A DNA stretch of 64,000 nucleotides, taken from a virus. The position numbers and the translations under genes were made by a program. Below, one piece after another: positions 37,504 to 61,258 of the stretch. Under the pieces are notes generated by a model. The model made no database searches. It saw nothing but the letters and a program-made list of their open reading frames with translations, and was not told the DNA's origin. Location: the IMG/VR virus record IMGVR_UViG_3300033183_000058, positions 1 to 64,000 of that record; one strand, written 5' to 3'. How positions within the stretch are numbered: position 1 is the first letter of the stretch; the number at the start of each line of letters is the position of its first letter.

Positions 37504-40167
37504 TTAACCTGCATCATCATCTGGTGCTGAAATTAATATTGATGGTATATAGTTTACTTCTCTGACGTTAGTTGATACAACAGGACCATTATCCAGTGTT
37601 GACCCTTCTGTTTCCTCAACGTCAGGATATTGTTTTAAAATTCCTTGTATATCTTGTGTAAACACACCTTTTGAAAATTGATTATTGACCTGTGTTACTT
37701 GATATATCAAACCTTTATATACTTGCCCAGAGCCTGTGGTTGTATTTTCTATTTCATTTTGATCTTTAAGTTCGATTGGTCTTAGATCTGCCATGCCAGT
37801 TGTTTCGTCATAGTCTTCCATAGTGTTGTAATCAACTTCAATTAAACACTCTCCTGAATCATAATCAACTGATCCGTCGGGCAAATAACCAGGATTGTTG
37901 TCTTGAACACCTAGGCTTCTCCAGAATATATCTCCCTGCTGTATATAATCAGGATCACCTAAGATTTTCATGTTTAATAATGCGTAATCTGTTGGTGAAT
38001 ATAACACCGACGCCGCACGAGCCGCTGGGTCTGCAGACAAGTCACTGCCTTGTATCACTGTTTGATCTGGTGGTCCAGGGTTTGTTGTTTCTCCTATTGT
38101 CGAAACATCTGCTTTATTTTGTGCAATCAACGGACTCGATGACACATAATACAGTGCGTTGAAGTCAACTTCGTAATTTAATATTTCTGTATTTTCTCCA
38201 GTAAACCAATATTTGTATCTTTTTTGGCAACCATTGAATTTTCTTCTAGGAAATGCAGGTGATTTAACATCACTGACTGCACTTGGAGTTACTTGATATA
38301 TTATTTTATAAGCATAATCCTTGCGAATTTCGTCCCAACCCAATACTCGAACGCTGGAAGTTATTCTATACCACTGTAATAAATTATTACTTGATTTATT
38401 TTTTACGTCTCTGGTATTAGGATCTATATATTTTTTCTGCTGTGCTGTAATCCATTCGCTGGCTCTGATACATTGATCTAATATATGTTGTATTTGACTA
38501 CCTGCGTTAATTGAAAAATTAAGTATATTTTTCTGCACTGTGTTACTTGATGTAGATATCAATGCTGGATTAACGTTGGCCATGGCCGTTCTTTCTTTTT
38601 TAGTTGTGCCTGGTGCTTTTACTTTTTGCTTACCAATACCACCTCTGAATTTAACTTCAAATTCAGGTGCAATACCAATAACGCCTTTTGCTTCTAGTTC
38701 TTTATAGTGTCTATTCAGTGATTCAAGCATGCCAGTTGACAATAATCTAGTATCATTGCCATCCACTTCTTGACTTAGTTGACCATTAAATAAATTCTCA
38801 AGTGTCTGTCCTTTAATCTCAACTTGATATTTTGCTGTTGAGTTTTTCTGACCCATAGCCTGCAAGTGATTAATTGGCACTGCTGAACACATGTATTCTA
38901 CTGCGCCTGTTGCGGCTCTTGTAGTAATATTAGTAAATTGAAATGGAATATATTTTTCTGTTAATGGTCTACTAGCAGTGACATTGACTGTGCCATCTGC
39001 ACCTGTTCCGCCACCTGTTTCAACATCAGATGCTGTAGCTGATTGTCCTTCTTCGCCGTAGAATCTTATGACCATGAGATAATGCTGTTTAATCCAATCT
39101 TTAGCACCTAGTCGTGCCTCAGGGTTTTCATTAGCTATTAAATCTTCACTGGCATTTTTTAATCTATTTAAAAATGTAAAACCATATGGTTCTGTAATTT
39201 TAAAGTTTAACTGTGTTACGTTAGTAGCACCTCTGACCTGTTGTGGCATTAGTGTCTGTATTTCTAAATCGTCAATGAAATAGTCTAGGTCAAAAAATCT
39301 ATTTCTAAATGCTCCGCCTGCAGTATACGGATCGCCTACAAATCCTCCTGGTAATCCTCCGCTGGCTAATATAGCATTAAATCCTTCAACACTTTTAACT
39401 GCCTGTGCATCTGCATCATTGGCATTTGCTTCTTCATCATAACCCATCATTTTGTTATATTGATCAGGTGTTATCATGTATATGGTTATGTTATATGTTG
39501 ATGTGCCAAATTTTGATAAAACATTACTGCTAGGATTAATTTCTTTATCATAACCTACAGCAACACGAATATTGTTTTGTCCACTCTGTGTAGTTGGATT
39601 AGTAGGTGCCTGTAGTCCGGTGTCTTCGCTGACAGCATTAGTTGTTTGATCATTAAAATCTGCAAGACCTCTAGTAGTAGTTTCATCAGCATTTGAATTA
39701 GTTTCGATAGCATTTGCACCTTGGTCTGACTCTAGTTCTGGGTTTTGAACTGTGGCATCTTCTGTTCTGTTTAATCCGTCGTCACCTGCTATCTGCGCCG
39801 CAGAATTAGTAGCATCCTCAGGCAGAGGTTCACGTGTGCCTGCATCTGCTATAGCTTGTTGTAACTCTGTTAATGCGTCAGCAGTAGTATTTCTAGACAC
39901 AGCAAGATCTGTTACTGCTTCTGCTACTCTATTACTCCATTCAGGATCACTGCGTCCTTCTAATACATTTGGTGTTTCTCTGGCTGTATTGATATTTCTA
40001 ATTAGATCACTGGCTCTTTCTACTAGATCGTTTGCCGTGTTAACAGCAAAATCAGAATTAATTGTAGCCAGATACGAATTAATGTCAGCAACAACTGCGT
40101 CAGCCTGAGCACCTAAGGCATCACGTTGAAGTTCAATCTGTTTGACATCAGCTTCTCTTAATGCCAT
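37504..40167 (-). CDS. Baseplate hub protein (gp27-like position)
   Basis: FKITEPYG, KILGDPDYI, Y.VT.V...FSKGVFTQ motifs typical of hub proteins; between gp53-like and gp5. Confidence 0.6.
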   Translation of the reverse strand: MALREADVKQIELQRDALGAQADAVVADINSYLATINSDFAVNTANDLVERASDLIRNINTARETPNVLEGRSDPEWSNRVAEAVTDLAVSRNTTADALTELQQAIADAGTREPLPEDATNSAAQIAGDDGLNRTEDATVQNPELESDQGANAIETNSNADETTTRGLADFNDQTTNAVSEDTGLQAPTNPTTQSGQNNIRVAVGYDKEINPSSNVLSKFGTSTYNITIYMITPDQYNKMMGYDEEANANDADAQAVKSVEGFNAILASGGLPGGFVGDPYTAGGAFRNRFFDLDYFIDDLEIQTLMPQQVRGATNVTQLNFKITEPYGFTFLNRLKNASEDLIANENPEARLGAKDWIKQHYLMVIRFYGEEGQSATASDVETGGGTGADGTVNVTASRPLTEKYIPFQFTNITTRAATGAVEYMCSAVPINHLQAMGQKNSTAKYQVEIKGQTLENLFNGQLSQEVDGNDTRLLSTGMLESLNRHYKELEAKGVIGIAPEFEVKFRGGIGKQKVKAPGTTKKERTAMANVNPALISTSSNTVQKNILNFSINAGSQIQHILDQCIRASEWITAQQKKYIDPNTRDVKNKSSNNLLQWYRITSSVRVLGWDEIRKDYAYKIIYQVTPSAVSDVKSPAFPRRKFNGCQKRYKYWFTGENTEILNYEVDFNALYYVSSSPLIAQNKADVSTIGETTNPGPPDQTVIQGSDLSADPAARAASVLYSPTDYALLNMKILGDPDYIQQGDIFWRSLGVQDNNPGYLPDGSVDYDSGECLIEVDYNTMEDYDETTGMADLRPIELKDQNEIENTTTGSGQVYKGLIYQVTQVNNQFSKGVFTQDIQGILKQYPDVEETEGSTLDNGPVVSTNVREVNYIPSILISAPDDDAG

Positions 40168-40168
40168 A

Positions 40169-40468
40169 TTAGAAACCTAGTGCTTTTTTAAGTGTTGAAA
40201 TTTTAGGCAAGTAGATAGTTGTTCCTACTTTAAAATCATATATAGGATCTACCAATGAGTTTGGGTTACGCTGAGCAAATACCCACCATAAATCAGAATC
40301 ATCATACAAATCTTGTGCTAATAGATCAGGACGATGTTGATAGGTCTGTGTTATTGTATATTGTTGATCATCACTATACTTTGGTATTTTACGATTCTGC
40401 ATAACACCTAGATAACCATCTTGTGTTCTTGTGGTGTAGTATGGTGACTTTGATGAATATTTTGCCAT
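40169..40468 (-). CDS. gp53: Baseplate wedge gp53-like (LysM-like) protein
   Basis: RPDLLAQDLY.DSDLWWVFAQRN...GTTIYLP. Confidence 0.75.
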   Translation of the reverse strand: MAKYSSKSPYYTTRTQDGYLGVMQNRKIPKYSDDQQYTITQTYQHRPDLLAQDLYDDSDLWWVFAQRNPNSLVDPIYDFKVGTTIYLPKISTLKKALGF

Positions 40469-41277
40469 TACCAGAAACCTCTCTTAAGACCTGACCCACT
40501 GGCATAATCTTTGAGACTGAACTCTTGACTCTGTCTCTTACGTGACACAATAGGATGCAGTGTTAACATAAATTCTATTTTAGTTGGAACGTAACTTGAT
40601 GTTCTACTAGATAAATCACCTGTGCCAGATCCATAATATTTGTTTTCAGCACCTTTGCTTATGCCTTGTGTGAATAATTCAAATAGTCTTGTTAATGGTG
40701 ATCTATATCCATTTCTTGCTGTTCTTTGTTCGGATAAATCAACACCAGAATCTGCATTTGATGTTCTTACATAGTCAACGTCCGGTGGTAACACATAGTT
40801 AAATTGCTGTATTACACAAGGCTGATTATTAAATTGATCATCACCAAAACCTTCTAAGAACACCAACGGTGGTGGATTGCCACGTTCTGCTGTGTCCTGA
40901 CCATAAAACATTTTAGTTGCTGAACGGAAGAAGTGCGTTGTGGCCAACAAATAGTCTGCTTCTTTAGTTGACTGTGCTGTAAATGTTCCAGTAATTTGTA
41001 TATCGGATATTTGACTTGATTGATAAAAATACTGTTTATAGTTTGAATGTGTTGGAGTAGTTTCACTATAATTTGCTTGATAGTTAACCATGACCTGTGG
41101 TGTGTATGGAAATATAACACCATCAGTTCCTCTGAGAGGTGACAATATGCCCGGTGTGTCTGATTTATACAACACATTTGATCCAGGTGCAAGACGCATT
41201 CTAAATCGCCAATCTCTAGCATCTGTTTCTACTGTAGACTGAGCGGTTACGTCATTTGGGTTAGTAATGTCTGCCAT
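40468..41277 (-). CDS. Tail tube initiator / baseplate-tube junction protein (gp48/gp54-like)
   Basis: FPYTP, I.ITGTFT, PPPLVFL.GFG, PCVI..F.Y, VPT..E..LTL motifs. Confidence 0.65.
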   Translation of the reverse strand: MADITNPNDVTAQSTVETDARDWRFRMRLAPGSNVLYKSDTPGILSPLRGTDGVIFPYTPQVMVNYQANYSETTPTHSNYKQYFYQSSQISDIQITGTFTAQSTKEADYLLATTHFFRSATKMFYGQDTAERGNPPPLVFLEGFGDDQFNNQPCVIQQFNYVLPPDVDYVRTSNADSGVDLSEQRTARNGYRSPLTRLFELFTQGISKGAENKYYGSGTGDLSSRTSSYVPTKIEFMLTLHPIVSRKRQSQEFSLKDYASGSGLKRGFW

Positions 41278-41296
41278 TTATTTTCTCCGTTTCTAC

Positions 41297-41303
41297 TATT
41301 TAT
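41297..41303 (-). promoter_or_regulatory. T4-type late promoter (ATAAATA) heading the baseplate module
   Basis: Upstream of GGAG SD and ATG 41277; divergent from gp55 promoter. Confidence 0.65.
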
Positions 41304-41347
41304 TAATATCATTATAACCCATTATAATTGTCGCTTACCAAAAAAGG

Positions 41348-41375
41348 TTGACAGGGGTCTAATCGGCTGTATAAT
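41348..41375 (+). promoter_or_regulatory. Sigma70 consensus promoter TTGACA-N16-TATAAT for gp55-47-46
   Basis: Perfect hexamers at 41348-41353 and 41370-41375. Confidence 0.85.
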
Positions 41376-41403
41376 TAATAGTATTGTTAACGGAGAAACT
41401 AAC

Positions 41404-42321
41404 GTGTCAGAAGATAAAGTAATTACCAGAACCGGACGTAGAGTAAACTATCTCAACAACAGAGATATCCTTAAAGAAATACACAAGTCAAAAAAGACCT
41501 ACTGTAGTTACACTAATATTGAAACTGATTCAGACTTTGATATTATTGTTCCTGATATTAAAAAAATTAATAAAACTAGAATCAAAGAAGCACGTCAGTT
41601 AAAGATCACTAAGTGGAAAAAAGAAACAGGCGAAGAATTAAATCCTAAAGATATAGCAGATACTGATCTAGTATTTCGTGTTATGACCTGGGACCATATT
41701 CCTCTAGTGCCTAAAAAGCCTACTAAAGCACAGTTAAAGAAACGTGCTAAGATTGAGGAAATGTTTGATGACATTGAAGAAGCCAGAGAACAAGAAGATT
41801 ACGGCATTGATGATCATATTCATGCCAAAGTAAACTTTCCTCCGTTTCAACACTACAAAGTTGATGAAGATGGCGTCCCATATAAGGTAGGACAAAGCCA
41901 TTGGCGAGGTGATTTTGAAACAGGTAAGTTCTCAAAAGATCACGGACAAATGACTAACAAACTAGCTCATATGTTTATCAAATTGTGTGAGCGTTATGCT
42001 ACTAGATCAAACTGGCGTGGTTATACCTATAACGAAGAAATGCGTGGACAGGCGCTACTTCAACTATCACAAATTGGTCTACAGTTTGATGAGTCAAAAT
42101 CGGACAATCCATTTGCTTATTACACTGCGGCCATTACTAATTCATTTACTCGTGTGCTTAATATTGAAAAGAAAAACCAAAGCATCAGAGACGATATCTT
42201 AGAAATGAACGGATTGAATCCAAGTTGGACTAGACAAAACGCCGATGTTGATGCTAAACTAGAAGATAAGTTTTACGAAAAGCAACGAGAAAAACAAAAA
42301 GAGAAACAAAAATCAAAGTAA
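41404..42321 (+). CDS. gp55: Late-transcription sigma factor gp55-like
   Basis: NYLNN, NWRGYTYNEEM, FDESKSDNPFAYYT..ITNSF.R..EKK; directly upstream of gp47/gp46; GTG start with GGAG SD. Confidence 0.88.
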   Translation: MSEDKVITRTGRRVNYLNNRDILKEIHKSKKTYCSYTNIETDSDFDIIVPDIKKINKTRIKEARQLKITKWKKETGEELNPKDIADTDLVFRVMTWDHIPLVPKKPTKAQLKKRAKIEEMFDDIEEAREQEDYGIDDHIHAKVNFPPFQHYKVDEDGVPYKVGQSHWRGDFETGKFSKDHGQMTNKLAHMFIKLCERYATRSNWRGYTYNEEMRGQALLQLSQIGLQFDESKSDNPFAYYTAAITNSFTRVLNIEKKNQSIRDDILEMNGLNPSWTRQNADVDAKLEDKFYEKQREKQKEKQKSK

Positions 42322-49180: not shown

Positions 49181-49761
49181 AAATATTAGTAACCGGAGAC
49201 AACAGAGGCCTAGGCCTAGACATAAAGAACGAATTTTCTGCAGATGGCATAAGTAGACAGTCAGGCTTTGACATTACTCGAGACGTTAAGCAAATTGCAG
49301 AGAAAAGTTTGGAGTATGATGTCTTTATCAACAACGCATTTGATGGTCCCCCACAAGAAGACTGGGCTAACTTTGGCCAAGTTAACTTACTGCTAGAAGT
49401 ATACAAGCAGTGGCGTGAACACAACAAAACAGGTTGGATATTTAACATAGGCAGTATTGGCGAGAAGAGCATAGTTGCTCCAGACCCTGATTGGGAAACC
49501 TACAGGATAGCTAAGTCAGCATTGAGACACGCTAGTCAACAATGCACTCGTGCCTTTAAAGACAACAAAGTCAAATTTAGGACTACGTTGATTAGTCCTG
49601 ACAGGCTTGACACTGAATTATCACGTTCTCGTGATAACTGGACAGGTAACGGTATACAAACTAAGGATATCATTGATTTTATTAAGTATTCTTTGGAAGT
49701 AAATCCTAACACTGTCATCGAGGAGGTCACTTTTTACTGTGGCCTTGATTACTCGGCATAA
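49177..49761 (+). CDS. Short-chain dehydrogenase/reductase (compact)
   Basis: VTGDNRGLG, FINNA, NIGS, YRIAK (YxxxK); ATGA overlap with upstream stop. Confidence 0.85.
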   Translation: MKILVTGDNRGLGLDIKNEFSADGISRQSGFDITRDVKQIAEKSLEYDVFINNAFDGPPQEDWANFGQVNLLLEVYKQWREHNKTGWIFNIGSIGEKSIVAPDPDWETYRIAKSALRHASQQCTRAFKDNKVKFRTTLISPDRLDTELSRSRDNWTGNGIQTKDIIDFIKYSLEVNPNTVIEEVTFYCGLDYSA

Positions 49762-49797
49762 ATGTTAGTGCTACAACTCTTTTAGAAAGGAAACATA

Positions 49798-50238
49798 TTG
49801 TCATACGAAAACCCTTGGATGTTACAAGACTCAATCTTTGACTCTGAAGATATCGGTGACAACTACGGTTTCGTCTATAGAATCACAAACACTACAAACG
49901 GACATGACTACATCGGCAAGAAGTTCTTTTGGCGTAAGGTCACACGTCCGCCACTCAAAGGCAAGAAAAATAAAAGAAGATCATTGGCAGAATCTGATTG
50001 GAAGGAATACTGGGGCTCCAGTGACCGACTACAGGCAGATATAGAAAAATTAGGCAAAGACAAATTCTCAAGGCAAATAATCCATTTGTGCAAATCCAAA
50101 GGCTCAACAAACTATTTGGAGTGCTACTATCAAATGAAAGAGAACGTGCTGTTACGTGATGACAATTACAACGGCATTATTAACATTCGACTTGGTGTAG
50201 GATCTGTTAAAGACGTATTATTAGAAGATTTAAAATAA
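49798..50238 (+). CDS. Small GIY-YIG-family nuclease (catalytic domain only)
   Basis: GFVYRITN..NG.DYIG, YWGSS, YLE, NYN; TTG start with AAGGA SD. Confidence 0.85.
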   Translation: MSYENPWMLQDSIFDSEDIGDNYGFVYRITNTTNGHDYIGKKFFWRKVTRPPLKGKKNKRRSLAESDWKEYWGSSDRLQADIEKLGKDKFSRQIIHLCKSKGSTNYLECYYQMKENVLLRDDNYNGIINIRLGVGSVKDVLLEDLK

Positions 50239-50658
50239 ACAGCCACTGATGCAGATGTATTCTGTGTCCTACGAGGTGATCACTGAGAAGTGTGGAACTC
50301 CTGAGAATAGACTTAGGAACGGGACGGCAACAGGCGAATAAGTTTAAAAACTAAATGATGTAGGCTCTGAGAAAAAGCAACCTACGTGTTGATATAGTTT
50401 GGCTAATCACGGACTATACAGCATCCGCCAGATGAATCTAGAGTAGGGAGCACCGGCTGACCACTTCCGTCCTTAGGGAATCTCTTTTGATTAGTATGAC
50501 GCTAACACGGATGATGCGTGGTCATAATTTGCCTGCGGATAGGTGAATTATGACTTAAATCAGGATGATACGCGAAGGGTATGTAAAAGAAATCAATTAA
50601 CTCTAGTTAAGAATAAAAGGTATGAGCGATAGCGAAATACAGATGTCGTAAGACATCT
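50239..50658 (+). ncRNA. Candidate ~420-nt structured non-coding RNA of unknown family
   Basis: No ORF; more GC-rich than other intergenic gaps; at least ten stems found by hand, with G-U pairs and GNRA loops (GAGA 50285-50288, GTAA 50648-50651) favouring the + strand. Confidence 0.7.
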
Positions 50659-51344
50659 TAAAATGTGTATCCAAAATGATCAATCCAAACACGATGTGCT
50701 TCAGTAACAGTTGCTAGAGTCTTTGGGTTTGTGTAATAGTCCTGATAAGGATTAGGTCTTATCCTGTAACCTGATTTATACTTTGGCATTGTGTCTGGTT
50801 TATACACTTCACCTATATTCTCACAGATACGTGCTACCTCATTATCAAAATCCTCATAACGAATAACATCATCTACAATAACTTCATCACCAATAGTAAA
50901 AACATCTAGGTCATCTGCTAACCATCTAGGTTTCATATCAATAAACCACTCAAACGATTCCCTTACTTCGTCAAATGGCATGTGTGGTTTACGAGCAATC
51001 TTCTTACGTATAGAGTGCATGGTCCACCAAAACTTAGATACCATACGATCCCAAGGATTGCGAATAACACAGATCTTGTAGTAAGACTTCCATACATCCT
51101 CACCTAACAGACTACGCAGTCTTTTAGCACTCATATGATTCCAATATTGATCTTCTTTGATCTTTCTACCATTGTGTCTGGCTCCTGCTATACCATACTC
51201 TGATATAGTTTCTACTCTGTTGTGATCGCCTAGGTCTACTGTGTCGGGTGGTAAACAAAACTGTTCAAGGTATGCTTCAACAGAAGTGCCACCTGTCTTT
51301 TTGGTTTTGAGATATATGAATTTGTGAGTGTGGCTTACAAGCAT
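50658..51344 (-). CDS. Sulfotransferase family 2-like protein
   Basis: FIYLKTKKTGGTS (5'-PSB), IRNPWDRMVS (3'-PB), IRYED, FGYTF; start reassigned to ATG 51344. Confidence 0.85.
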   Translation of the reverse strand: MLVSHTHKFIYLKTKKTGGTSVEAYLEQFCLPPDTVDLGDHNRVETISEYGIAGARHNGRKIKEDQYWNHMSAKRLRSLLGEDVWKSYYKICVIRNPWDRMVSKFWWTMHSIRKKIARKPHMPFDEVRESFEWFIDMKPRWLADDLDVFTIGDEVIVDDVIRYEDFDNEVARICENIGEVYKPDTMPKYKSGYRIRPNPYQDYYTNPKTLATVTEAHRVWIDHFGYTF

Positions 51345-51360
51345 AACATTACTTATAGTC

Positions 51361-51397
51361 AAAAGAAAAGGCCCAGGTATCTCAACGTGAGCCTTTT
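51361..51397 (-). terminator. Rho-independent terminator
   Basis: AAAAGGCTCA...TGGGCCTTTTCTTTT on the minus strand. Confidence 0.7.
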
Positions 51398-60813: not shown

Positions 60814-60901
60814 ACTCGCACACGGGGTGCGTTTTTATGCTGTTACCATATCAGCGTAGCGGATAGAACCCGCATTGGACTTCTATAAGGAGAAATATAA
60901 A
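60814..60901 (+). promoter_or_regulatory. Structured 5' leader (four hairpins, last covering the SD)
   Basis: CGCAC/GTGCG, TATGCTG/CAGCGTA, GCGG/CCGC, CTTCT/AGGAG stems. Confidence 0.5.
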
Positions 60902-61258
60902 ATGGGTAGACCAATAGACAAATACTTTTTAGGTGCAACCGGCGGTTCGCCAGCAACTATTCCAGTTCGTGCAGACATTAGTGGAACAGACTTTGAAGGT
61001 TACATCGTTAATCAAAAAGGTTCTAAAACTTTCACAGTATCAAACGACGCAGGCACACTTCAAGGTGAATGTGTTTTAGTTGACAAAGTTAACGGTCACG
61101 ATGCAGGCGAAATGTCTATCGTTGGCTTAGCAGACGGTTCTGCGACAACGATTCAAAAGATCACAGCTCACAAAGCAGTTGACTATAATGGCAACGCTTA
61201 CTCATGGGCAGTGGCAGACGATTCATCTGAATCACTATTAATCTTAACAGCACTATAA
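60902..61258 (+). CDS. Putative virion protein (118 aa, MGRPIDK...)
   Basis: AGGAG SD 9 nt upstream of ATG 60902; follows gp23. Confidence 0.75.
   Translation: MGRPIDKYFLGATGGSPATIPVRADISGTDFEGYIVNQKGSKTFTVSNDAGTLQGECVLVDKVNGHDAGEMSIVGLADGSATTIQKITAHKAVDYNGNAYSWAVADDSSESLLILTAL

What the first reader, a model, noticed from the sequence alone, without database searches (positions are those of the whole stretch)
49798..50658. Minimal GIY-YIG nuclease immediately followed by a ~420-nt ornate non-coding RNA: candidate nuclease-RNA system
Seen: the largest ORF-free gap in the window starts at the nuclease stop and is almost fully foldable: GCAGA/TCTGT (50251-50265), CACT-GAGA-AGTG (50281-50292), TCCTGAG/CTTAGGA (50299-50318), GTAGG/CCTAC (50360-50385), TGTTG.TATAGTTT/GGACTATA.CAGCA (50387-50423), GGGAG/CTTCC (50446-50468), a 15-bp stem GGTCATAATTTGCCT/AGGTGAATTATGACT (50520-50555), GTAT..ATAC (50620-50640) and AGATGTC-GTAA-GACATCT (50641-50658), plus possible long-range pairs GGGACGG (50321-50327)/CCGTCCT (50467-50473) and CAGCC (50240-50244)/GGCTG (50455-50459). 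G-U pairs and GNRA loops favour a + strand RNA co-transcribed with the nuclease. The 146-aa protein has only the catalytic domain plus a basic loop (RPPLKGKKNKRR). It does not match tRNA, tmRNA, RNase P or intron consensus that I recognise. Inference: a ribonucleoprotein (RNA-guided or RNA-regulated nuclease), an antitoxin-like RNA, or a replication-origin transcript nicked or processed by the nuclease.
Basis: partly seen in the sequence, partly recalled or inferred. Interest (0 to 1): 0.87.

Follow-up and report, generated by a model that had tools for sequence, protein, structure and literature searches.

The report
Large twin-box phage RNA beside nuclease
Behind a small DNA-cutting enzyme gene, this uncultured T4-like aquatic phage encodes a real, roughly 420-base knotted non-coding RNA shared by well over a hundred related phages; the two are faithful neighbours, nothing shows that the RNA guides the enzyme, and the RNA's job is unknown.

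Summary
The 419-nt gap (50239-50657) is the largest ORF-free stretch in the window. It encodes a real + strand structured RNA. A covariance model built from four relatives recovers 52 homologues. In these, 47 of 55 pairs show compensatory changes (88.5% paired, against 32-47% in slid controls). This includes the long-range CAGCC/GGCTG helix and a crossing GGGAG/CTTCC helix, which makes a pseudoknot.

The RNA has a ~240-nt 5' domain and a 3' module. In the 3' module two identical 7-nt boxes (GGAUGAU at 50509 and 50563) flank a 15-bp stem. In relatives both boxes change together.

No Rfam family hits the window. Bacterial-island homologues reach RF01712, and one phage subfamily carries RF01718 in the same slot.

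The 146-aa protein is an intact, catalytic-domain-only SegE/I-TevI-type GIY-YIG nuclease. Of 108 assessable loci found through the RNA alone:
- 73 have this nuclease directly upstream;
- 14 have an unrelated PD-(D/E)XK nuclease there;
- 13 have no nuclease.

Most GIY-YIG homologues have no RNA, and a nuclease swap leaves the RNA unchanged.

Verdict: conserved neighbours at the end of the Mre11/Rad50 operon, not a demonstrated RNA-guided nuclease. This scan has met the same RNA family before on other phage DNA.

The parts
49798..50238 (+). 146-aa GIY-YIG endonuclease with the catalytic domain only (SegE/I-TevI type). TTG start with AGGAA 5 nt upstream; stop codon TAA at 50236-50238.
   Evidence: PF19835 at 138.8 bits and phrog_447 at E 2.8e-42. 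AlphaFold model pLDDT 91.8; best PDB matches are the I-TevI catalytic domain 1LN0/1MK0. Invariant in 25-137 relatives: Y27, Y38, G40, K42, R92, E108, N125.
50240..50476 (+). 5' pseudoknotted domain of the RNA. It contains long-range helix CAGCC 50240-44 / GGCTG 50455-59; hairpin 50251-65; a junction closed by GUCCU 50266-70 / GGGAC 50321-25 that holds hairpins 50281-92 and 50299-318; the conserved-loop hairpin; hairpin 50387-423; and the crossing helix GGGAG 50446-50 / CTTCC 50464-68.
   Evidence: Model R1 gave 52 matches. 47 of 55 pairs have changes on both sides; 88.5% are paired against 32-47% in slid controls; 0 of 500 shuffles reach this. The pseudoknot helix is 95.7% paired, with GC to AU exchanges.
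50360..50385 (+). Hairpin GTAGG/CCTAC. Its loop and stem top, GCUCUGAGAAAAAGCAAC (50364-50381), form the most conserved word of the family. This is the part shared with Rfam RF01712 in bacterial homologues.
   Evidence: Near-invariant columns in A5. The pattern scan with this word found at least 120 viral contigs, 115 of 119 of them with the whole RNA. RF01712 covers this hairpin in L297, L274 and L280.
50509..50515 (+). Twin box 1 (GGAUGAU), single-stranded, 5' of the long stem.
   Evidence: Identical to box 2. In 32 of 38 distinct relatives both boxes carry the same variable dinucleotide (AC, AG, GG, GC, UC, GA, GU).
50520..50555 (+). 15-bp stem GGUCAUAAUUUGCCU / AGGUGAAUUAUGACU with loop GCGGAU.
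   Evidence: RNAalifold on 30 diverse sequences: 8 pairs, 7 with compensatory changes, and many G-U pairs on this strand.
50563..50569 (+). Twin box 2 (GGAUGAU), 54 nt after box 1.
   Evidence: Box spacing is 49-67 nt in relatives. No complementary partner lies within -700 to +400 nt or above chance in whole loci.
50620..50640 (+). Hairpin GUAU/AUAC with the conserved apex GAGCGAUAGCGAA (GNNA loop on a GC/GC stem, flanked by GA and GAA).
   Evidence: The apex is nearly invariant and the outer stem varies with pairing kept (alignment A7).
50641..50658 (+). Terminal hairpin AGAUGUC-GUAA-GACAUCU. It is the likely 3' end of the RNA and lies next to the stop codon of the convergent gene.
   Evidence: A hairpin is kept at this place in all 30 sequences of A7 with a different sequence each time. 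Metatranscriptome contigs end by about 50675. There is no T-run, so the terminator scan does not call it.
50658..51362 (-). Convergent sulfotransferase-like gene. It is not part of the unit and marks its downstream border.
   Evidence: PF03567 at E 4.6e-08. Absent at this place in relatives L006, L007 and L009.

Best explanation
The gap encodes an autonomous, two-domain structured non-coding RNA of about 420 nt on the + strand. It belongs to a large RNA family of uncultured T4-like aquatic myophages, with rarer copies in prophage-like islands of Proteobacteria.

Location and transcription: the RNA sits at a fixed genomic place. It is the last element of the rightward Mre11/Rad50 (gp47/gp46-like) transcription unit, facing the convergent baseplate genes. 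It is probably made by read-through from the nuclease gene, because its first helix starts 2 nt after the stop codon. It ends at a conserved terminal hairpin.

The nuclease: the 146-aa GIY-YIG protein is a resident, vertically inherited, catalytically intact DNA endonuclease. It occupies an exchangeable 'nuclease slot' between Rad50 and the RNA. The slot holds GIY-YIG in about two thirds of loci, PD-(D/E)XK in about one eighth, sometimes both or a full-length NUMOD3 homing endonuclease, and sometimes nothing. The adjacency is therefore conserved synteny, perhaps reinforced by homing-type co-conversion next to an ultra-conserved RNA gene. It is not RNA guidance.

What is shown: the RNA fold, the family, the synteny, and the independence of the two partners.

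What is inferred: the RNA acts in trans as a stable scaffold. Its 3' module displays two identical single-stranded 7-nt boxes on either side of a rigid 15-bp helix, for a reader that needs the two words to be the same. The 5' pseudoknot domain is a swappable second domain.
For: RNA reality and strand:
- Fold z-score is -3.0 on + against -1.4 on -.
- 25 of 80 pairs are compensatory among 5 close relatives.
- 47 of 55 pairs are compensatory among 52 homologues, and no shuffle or slide comes near.
- Many G-U pairs work only on the + strand.

Fixed place: the gene order is Mre11, Rad50, [f7], nuclease, RNA, [variable], baseplate genes.

Independence of the partners:
- 14 loci have PF24608 PDDEXK_15 instead of GIY-YIG.
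- In 5 loci the nuclease gene is on the other strand; in 3 it lies 0.7-1.6 kb away, with an IMPDH or methyltransferase gene inserted in two of them (L120, L130).
- 13 loci have no nuclease.
- Bacterial copies lie next to a tRNA and a resolvase, without a nuclease.
- About 50 of 80 GIY-YIG homologues have no RNA.
- The GIY-YIG to PD swap between L109 and L129/L098 replaces only about 780 nt, and the RNA stays 77% identical while Rad50 is 71-72%.

Resident nuclease: GIY-YIG distances track Rad50 distances (Spearman 0.70, 52 loci), and the protein is more conserved than Rad50 (0.32 against 0.39).

Transcription hint: metatranscriptome contigs of four salt-marsh runs cover 49756-50679. One bridges the gene end and the RNA (50156-50571). 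None covers 50680-51350.

Twin boxes.
Against: - No direct evidence of a discrete stable RNA. Only assembled contigs were laid, they come from relatives rather than this strain, and DNA carry-over cannot be excluded.
- 81-88% of RNA loci do keep a small nuclease gene upstream, from two unrelated folds that both lack a targeting domain. This is more than plain synteny requires and leaves a functional tie open.
- The trans-acting scaffold role and the nature of the twin-box reader are inference only. No partner sequence was found.
- No promoter or canonical terminator is called.
Confidence: 0.6

Rival explanations
1. Homing-endonuclease reading. The small nuclease genes are selfish, or recently domesticated, free-standing homing endonucleases. 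They park beside the RNA gene because its near-invariant words give a lasting cleavage and co-conversion target, as T4 SegB does beside tRNA genes.
For: - The protein belongs to the SegE family, and its fold is nearest to the I-TevI catalytic domain.
- The same slot holds unrelated nucleases, with a clean cassette swap between conserved flanks.
- L168 carries a 360-aa SegE_GIY-YIG+NUMOD3 protein inserted between Rad50 and the PD gene, relative to L091.
- Nuclease genes occur in both orientations.
Against: - The 146-aa form has no DNA-binding domain.
- It is inherited with the backbone (rho 0.70) and is more conserved than Rad50. No pair has a close Rad50 and a distant nuclease.
- No closely related pair of loci (RNA 90% identical or more) differs in nuclease presence.
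Confidence: 0.2
2. Ribonucleoprotein reading. The RNA binds the minimal nuclease and guides or regulates it, with the variable twin boxes as the specificity element.
For: - The RNA starts 2 nt after the stop codon.
- 87 of 108 RNA loci keep a co-oriented small nuclease upstream.
- Both nuclease types lack a targeting domain.
- The twin boxes vary fast while staying identical.
Against: - Both partners are common without the other.
- Two unrelated folds would have to use the same RNA, and the RNA does not change at a swap.
- Other genes can sit between the nuclease and the RNA.
- No target matching the boxes was found in 693 kb of related phage DNA above chance: 46 and 63 hits against about 42 expected.
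Confidence: 0.12
3. Cis-acting 3' element. The structure is a 3' UTR that stabilises or terminates the Mre11/Rad50-nuclease mRNA and insulates it from the convergent late genes.
For: It lies at the end of the operon, has a terminal hairpin at the convergence point, and has no promoter of its own.
Against: - 420 nt with a conserved pseudoknot, invariant loops and twin boxes is far more than a terminator needs.
- The same RNA stands behind inverted nuclease genes and in bacterial islands in other contexts.
- The 5' domain is swappable while the 3' module stays.
Confidence: 0.08
4. Template reading. The twin boxes are realignment repeats, like the R repeats of retroviruses, the telomerase template ends, or the repeats that let the DRT2 reverse transcriptase jump. 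The 54-nt box-stem-box unit would then be copied repeatedly by a polymerase.
For: This is the only known logic that demands identity of two words without conserving their sequence. Box spacing is constrained to 49-67 nt.
Against: - No reverse transcriptase is found in the 73.8-kb record (the record is only about 21% complete).
- The proposed template is a stable hairpin.
- Unit lengths are not multiples of three.
- No tandem product was found, but that search was uninformative.
Confidence: 0.06
5. Replication-origin or primer transcript processed by the nuclease.
For: The position between early and late modules recalls T4 oriF beside the baseplate genes (from knowledge of T4, not tested here).
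Against: - The cumulative GC-skew minimum lies near 41 kb, not at 50.3 kb.
- R-loop primers need no conserved pseudoknot.
- The RNA also occurs in bacterial islands.
Confidence: 0.04

Closest known systems
Methylobacterium-1 RNA motif (Rfam RF01712; Weinberg et al. 2010, PMC2864571), an orphan ~103-nt motif
   Same: It has the hairpin with loop GCUCUGAGAAAAAGCAAC preceded by A(C/U)GAUG and followed by a second hairpin. Bacterial-island homologues of the window RNA score 49.9 (L297), 35.3 (L274) and 31.1 bits (L280). The window-derived model R1 finds the L280 copy as the only hit in a 2.1-Mb genome (E 2e-5).
   Different: The Rfam model does not hit the window at all. It covers only about a quarter of the RNA. 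The pseudoknot, the twin-box module and the phage context are not part of the catalogued motif.
Polynucleobacter-1 RNA motif (Rfam RF01718; same paper), an orphan 141-nt motif
   Same: In subfamily L016/L021 it fills the first third of the RNA slot, behind the same nuclease and ahead of the same 3' module (63.4 bits). Its topology, a closing stem around two hairpins, resembles window 50266-50325.
   Different: It is not detected in the window at E<=10, nor at gathering score in 15 loci with the window-type 5' domain. Homology of the window's first third to it is therefore unproven.
Free-standing GIY-YIG homing endonucleases of T4-like phages (SegA-G; I-TevI catalytic domain, PDB 1LN0/1MK0)
   Same: The same Pfam family as SegE, the nearest solved fold, and an intact catalytic set.
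   Different: There is no NUMOD, zinc-finger or HTH DNA-binding domain. It is 146 aa, against about 200-245 aa recalled for these enzymes. It is inherited vertically.
Large ornate RNAs of phages and prophages (GOLLD, ROOL, HEARO/omega RNA)
   Same: A large, multi-helix RNA of phages with unknown function. HEARO-type RNAs are nuclease-linked.
   Different: No Rfam match to any of them. There is no IscB/TnpB-type nuclease. The linkage to the nuclease is facultative.
Repeat-dependent template RNAs (telomerase RNA, DRT2/DRT10 ncRNAs; preprints 10.64898/2026.06.29.735271 and 10.64898/2026.09.22.753630 for the recent phage and defence cases)
   Same: Two short direct repeats that must stay identical. 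This is a works-like resemblance only.
   Different: No reverse transcriptase found, and no product found.

Membership tests
Rfam RF01712 Methylobacterium-1 | Covariance-model score at or above the gathering score (40 bits) | tested here: not met
   No hit on the window even at E<=10 over 430 nt. Homologues score 49.9 bits (L297), 35.3 (L274) and 31.1 (L280).
Rfam RF01712 Methylobacterium-1 | Hairpin with the conserved loop word GCUCUGAGAAAAAGCAAC, followed by a second hairpin | tested here: met
   Window 50360-50423. The word is present at 50364-50381, and both hairpins covary.
Rfam RF01718 Polynucleobacter-1 | Covariance-model score at or above the gathering score (37 bits) | tested here: not met
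   No hit on the window or on 15 relatives with the same 5' domain. Met only in L016 (63.4 bits).
GIY-YIG superfamily, SegE family (PF19835) | Profile match over the curated cut-off | tested here: met
   138.8 bits against a cut-off of 25.
GIY-YIG superfamily, SegE family (PF19835) | Catalytic residues (the GIY and YIG tyrosines, a basic residue, Glu, Asn) | tested here: met
   Y27, Y38, G40, K42, R92, E108 and N125 are invariant in 25 and in 137 relatives. Assigning them to catalytic roles is by analogy.
GIY-YIG superfamily, SegE family (PF19835) | GIY-YIG fold | tested here: met
   Model pLDDT 91.8. The top PDB matches are I-TevI 1LN0/1MK0, with probability 1.0 and TM 0.67-0.68 on the target, although E is only 0.02.
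Free-standing homing endonuclease (functional class) | A separate DNA-binding or targeting domain | tested here: not met
   No second Pfam domain in the 146 aa. Compare L168, a 360-aa protein with NUMOD3.
Free-standing homing endonuclease (functional class) | Sporadic, horizontally mobile distribution | tested here: inconclusive
   There is slot turnover between families. Within GIY-YIG loci, however, inheritance tracks Rad50 (rho 0.70).
RNA-guided nuclease systems (CRISPR, OMEGA/HEARO type) | Obligate co-occurrence of the nuclease and its RNA | tested here: not met
RNA-guided nuclease systems (CRISPR, OMEGA/HEARO type) | RNA-protein binding and RNA-dependent cleavage | not testable with these tools
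   Needs biochemistry.
Type III toxin-antitoxin (ToxIN-like) | Tandem ~36-nt RNA repeats upstream of an endoribonuclease toxin | tested here: not met
   There are only two 7-nt boxes 54 nt apart, the RNA is downstream, and the nuclease is GIY-YIG.
RNase P RNA, tmRNA, group I/II introns, GOLLD, ROOL, HEARO | Rfam covariance-model match | tested here: not met
   Nothing at E<=10. ARAGORN finds no tRNA or tmRNA. A remembered likeness of AGAUGAAU...CCGGCU to RNase P CR-IV/V did not hold in relatives.

The most novel reading that the evidence does not exclude
The twin boxes are a programmable specificity element read by base pairing, or used for strand transfer. The RNA would then be the targeting or template part of a modular system, and whichever minimal, domain-less nuclease occupies the upstream slot (GIY-YIG or PD-(D/E)XK) would be the effector. 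This would be a new kind of RNA-specified nuclease or repeat-synthesis system in T4-like phages.
Probability: 0.08. Interest if true: 0.9.

Novelty: new variant of a known kind. Interest (0 to 1): 0.6.

Why it matters
This is a large, pseudoknotted RNA that no catalogue holds as a whole, and it is conserved in well over a hundred abundant aquatic T4-like phages. It shows that two orphan Rfam motifs from 2010 (RF01712, and RF01718 in a sister subfamily) are pieces of one much larger RNA architecture.

Its two 7-nt boxes drift in sequence but always stay identical to each other. Ordinary RNA pairing does not explain that constraint, and it points to an unknown reader or to a strand-transfer step. 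Its constant place beside interchangeable minimal nucleases at the end of the Mre11/Rad50 operon gives a concrete hypothesis to test.

A cultured bacterium, Methylophilales LSUCC0135, carries a copy, so experiments are possible.

Tried and rejected
- RNase P-like reading. From memory, AGAUGAAU...ACCGGCUGACC resembles CR-IV/CR-V. Rejected: no Rfam hit and the AGAUGAAU word is not kept in other subfamilies.
- T4 EndoII (DenA)-like reading of the nuclease, suggested by cyanophage synteny after nrdB. There is no PDB sequence hit, and the nearest fold is I-TevI, not EndoII. Left open as an analogy only.
- tRNA-cluster analogy. No tRNA in the window or in 56 related loci.
- CsrA-sponge idea for the GGAUGA boxes. 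Rejected because GGA is not conserved in the boxes of relatives.
- Boxes displayed in short hairpin loops. This was my by-eye impression. Flanking complementarity is no better than in shuffles: 3.81 against 3.74 for box 1 and 2.99 against 3.47 for box 2.
- A cis partner for the boxes. None within -700 to +400 nt, and none above chance in 693 kb.
- Cultured phages carrying the RNA. blastn of three subfamily queries against 50,697 phage records found nothing. R1 found nothing in Melnitz, S-SCSM1, S-SM2 or phiN3.
- Tandem box-stem-box junction in metagenome contigs. 0 hits, but the normal-context control also gave 0, so this is uninformative.
- Parts of the window without metatranscriptome cover (50680-51350). 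Relatives lack that gene, so this is no evidence of silence.
- RF01712 in 151 genomes of the order of LSUCC0135. Found only in that genome itself, so the RNA is not a core bacterial RNA among those searched.
- Literature searches found no description of the whole RNA.
Full report
WHAT IS THERE

The window is part of a 73.8-kb IMG/VR viral record, estimated about 21% complete. It comes from a T4-like phage. The best cultured relative of the nuclease is in Methylophilales phage Melnitz (58% aa, Kyanoviridae).

ORF 49798-50238 encodes 146 aa that match Pfam SegE_GIY-YIG (138.8 bits) and nothing else. They also match phrog_447, a 148-aa family often mislabelled 'NAD synthetase'.

From the stop codon to the stop of a convergent sulfotransferase-like gene lie 419 nt with no ORF of 70 aa or more. 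This is the largest such gap in the window.

THE RNA IS REAL

The + strand folds at z -3.0 and the - strand at z -1.4.

Relatives found through the nuclease keep the downstream sequence at 73-84% identity. Among five distinct sequences, 25 of 80 predicted pairs already show double changes.

A covariance model from four sequences (R1) found 52 matches.
- 47 of 55 pairs have compensatory changes.
- 88.5% of cells are paired, against 32-47% when partners are slid.
- No shuffle out of 500 reaches the observed values.
- Adding the crossing helix GGGRG/CYUCC gives 95.7% pairing with GC/AU exchange.

The 5' domain is therefore a pseudoknot. CAGCC (50240) pairs with GGCTG (50455), and GGGAG (50446) pairs with CTTCC (50464). 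Frequent G-U pairs fix the strand as +.

ANATOMY

The 5' domain (50240-50476) holds a three-hairpin region, the hairpin with the near-invariant word GCUCUGAGAAAAAGCAAC (50364-81), a further hairpin and the pseudoknot.

The 3' module (about 50497-50658) holds a 15-bp stem (7 of 8 RNAalifold pairs compensatory), a hairpin with the conserved apex GAGCGNNAGCGAA, and a terminal hairpin whose sequence differs in every lineage while the pairing is kept.

On either side of the long stem lie two single-stranded boxes, GGAUGAU at 50509 and again at 50563.
- In relatives the boxes read ACAUGA., AGAUAA., GCAUGAU, GAAUAAU and so on.
- In 32 of 38 distinct sequences both copies carry the same variable letters. 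The exceptions are mostly mis-assignments by my pattern.
- I found no complementary partner nearby or above chance in 693 kb.
- The boxes are not enclosed by hairpins.
- This identity constraint is unexplained.

MODULARITY AND KNOWN MOTIFS

The 3' module is the most widespread part.
- In L016/L021 the first third of the slot is Rfam Polynucleobacter-1 (63.4 bits).
- In L015/L012/L022/L038 there is yet another, uncatalogued 5' domain.
- In two metatranscriptome contigs the first 100 nt of the window RNA are replaced by 103 other letters.

The window itself hits no Rfam family. Fifteen loci with the window-type 5' domain have no RF01718 hit.

A scan of bacterial genomes with the core word gave mostly chance hits, but about ten real homologues.
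- Methylophilales LSUCC0135: the RNA lies next to a tRNA, followed by a collagen-repeat protein and a resolvase, which looks like an island.
- Oxalobacteraceae MsE-6.
- Burkholderiaceae, Sphingomonadaceae and Dechloromonas MAGs.

In these the central hairpins are Rfam Methylobacterium-1: 49.9, 35.3 and 31.1 bits. R1 finds the LSUCC0135 copy as the only hit in its 2.1-Mb genome (position checked). None of 150 other genomes of that order has RF01712.

The catalogued orphan motifs are thus fragments of this larger RNA family.

THE NUCLEASE

The AlphaFold model is confident (pLDDT 91.8). Its best solved relatives are the I-TevI catalytic domain. There is no PDB hit by sequence. Y27, Y38, G40, K42, R92, E108 and N125 are invariant.

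The family is widespread without any RNA. It occurs in nearly all cyanomyophages after nrdB, in FelixO1-like phages, in Sinorhizobium phages and others.

LINKAGE

To avoid circularity I searched IMG/VR with the RNA word alone. Of 119 loci, 115 have the RNA. Their upstream state is as follows.

| Upstream state | Loci |
|---|---|
| GIY-YIG gene directly upstream, same strand | 73 |
| PF24608 PDDEXK_15 nuclease (six checked by Pfam) | 14 |
| Cut off by the contig end | 7 |
| Neither | 21 |

Of the 21 with neither, eight have a nuclease gene on the other strand or 0.7-1.6 kb away. In two of these (L120, L130) an IMPDH-like or a methyltransferase gene lies in between. The other 13 have no nuclease.

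Conversely, about 50 of 80 GIY-YIG homologues (46-60% identity) are followed by another gene within 120 nt.

Gene order is conserved: Mre11-like, Rad50-like, a small ORF, the nuclease, the RNA, variable genes, then convergent baseplate genes.

L109/L110 (PD) and L129/L098 (GIY-YIG) are collinear. Homology stops inside the small ORF and resumes exactly at the RNA. The RNA is 77% identical and Rad50 71-72%.

L168 has a 360-aa SegE+NUMOD3 endonuclease inserted ahead of the PD gene, relative to L091.

Within GIY-YIG loci, nuclease distances follow Rad50 distances (rho 0.70), and the nuclease is the more conserved of the two.

READING

The RNA and the nuclease are long-standing neighbours in a slot that tolerates exchange. 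Each lives without the other, and the RNA does not respond to a change of nuclease fold. This favours an autonomous RNA gene next to a resident small endonuclease.

A homing-type relation is the main rival. A true ribonucleoprotein is a minority possibility. What keeps it alive is that two unrelated nucleases without targeting domains are retained next to an RNA with a fast-changing but internally matched word.

The origin reading gets no support from GC skew. No promoter or canonical terminator is called.

Four salt-marsh metatranscriptome runs hold contigs over the nuclease gene and the RNA, and one contig bridges them. This is only a hint of co-transcription.

EARLIER NOTES OF THIS SCAN

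Searches show that the same RNA family was met on several other phage genomes. The conclusions were similar: a real RNA, twin boxes, not shown to be a guide, and a relative of Polynucleobacter-1.

I reached the twin-box observation independently. Here I could not reproduce the Polynucleobacter-1 assignment for this window's subfamily.

Noticed in passing
window 60816-60904 (+): Rfam freshwater-2 RNA (RF02980) at 68.1 bits, above the gathering score of 49.9. It lies in the 144-nt gap after the capsid region.
   Followed up: no
L015:3190-3390, L012, L022, L038: A third, uncatalogued structured 5' domain of about 200-230 nt (for example ...GGUAAAGUCCAACAGGCUG...GCUACGAAAACCCC...). It stands behind the same GIY-YIG gene and ahead of the same twin-box 3' module. 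No Rfam hit at E<=1.
   Followed up: partly
L016:3504-3647 and L021: Rfam Polynucleobacter-1 (63.4 bits) occupies the first third of the RNA slot in this subfamily.
   Followed up: partly
L168:2517-3596: A full-length 360-aa SegE_GIY-YIG+NUMOD3 homing-type endonuclease inserted between Rad50 and a PDDEXK_15 gene. It is absent from the otherwise collinear L091.
   Followed up: yes
L120:4264-5325 and L130:3919-4593: Metabolic genes (an IMPDH/GMP-reductase-like gene and a SAM methyltransferase) are inserted between the GIY-YIG gene and the RNA.
   Followed up: partly
window 50658-51362 (-): A sulfotransferase-like gene sits between the RNA and the baseplate genes here and in L008, but not in L006, L007 or L009. 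It is a lineage-specific insertion.
   Followed up: partly
L280:2637-6744 (Methylophilales bacterium LSUCC0135): The bacterial copy of the RNA lies directly after a tRNA gene. It is followed by a collagen-repeat/CBM protein and a serine resolvase, which looks like a small integrated element.
   Followed up: partly
window ~40000-42000: GC skew and AT skew change sign here, at a switch of coding strand. This is the cumulative-skew minimum of the window.
   Followed up: no
L123, L126, L128 (ORFs of 371-382 aa directly upstream of the RNA): In this nuclease-free clade the gene before the RNA is a protein with no Pfam or PHROG match.
   Followed up: partly
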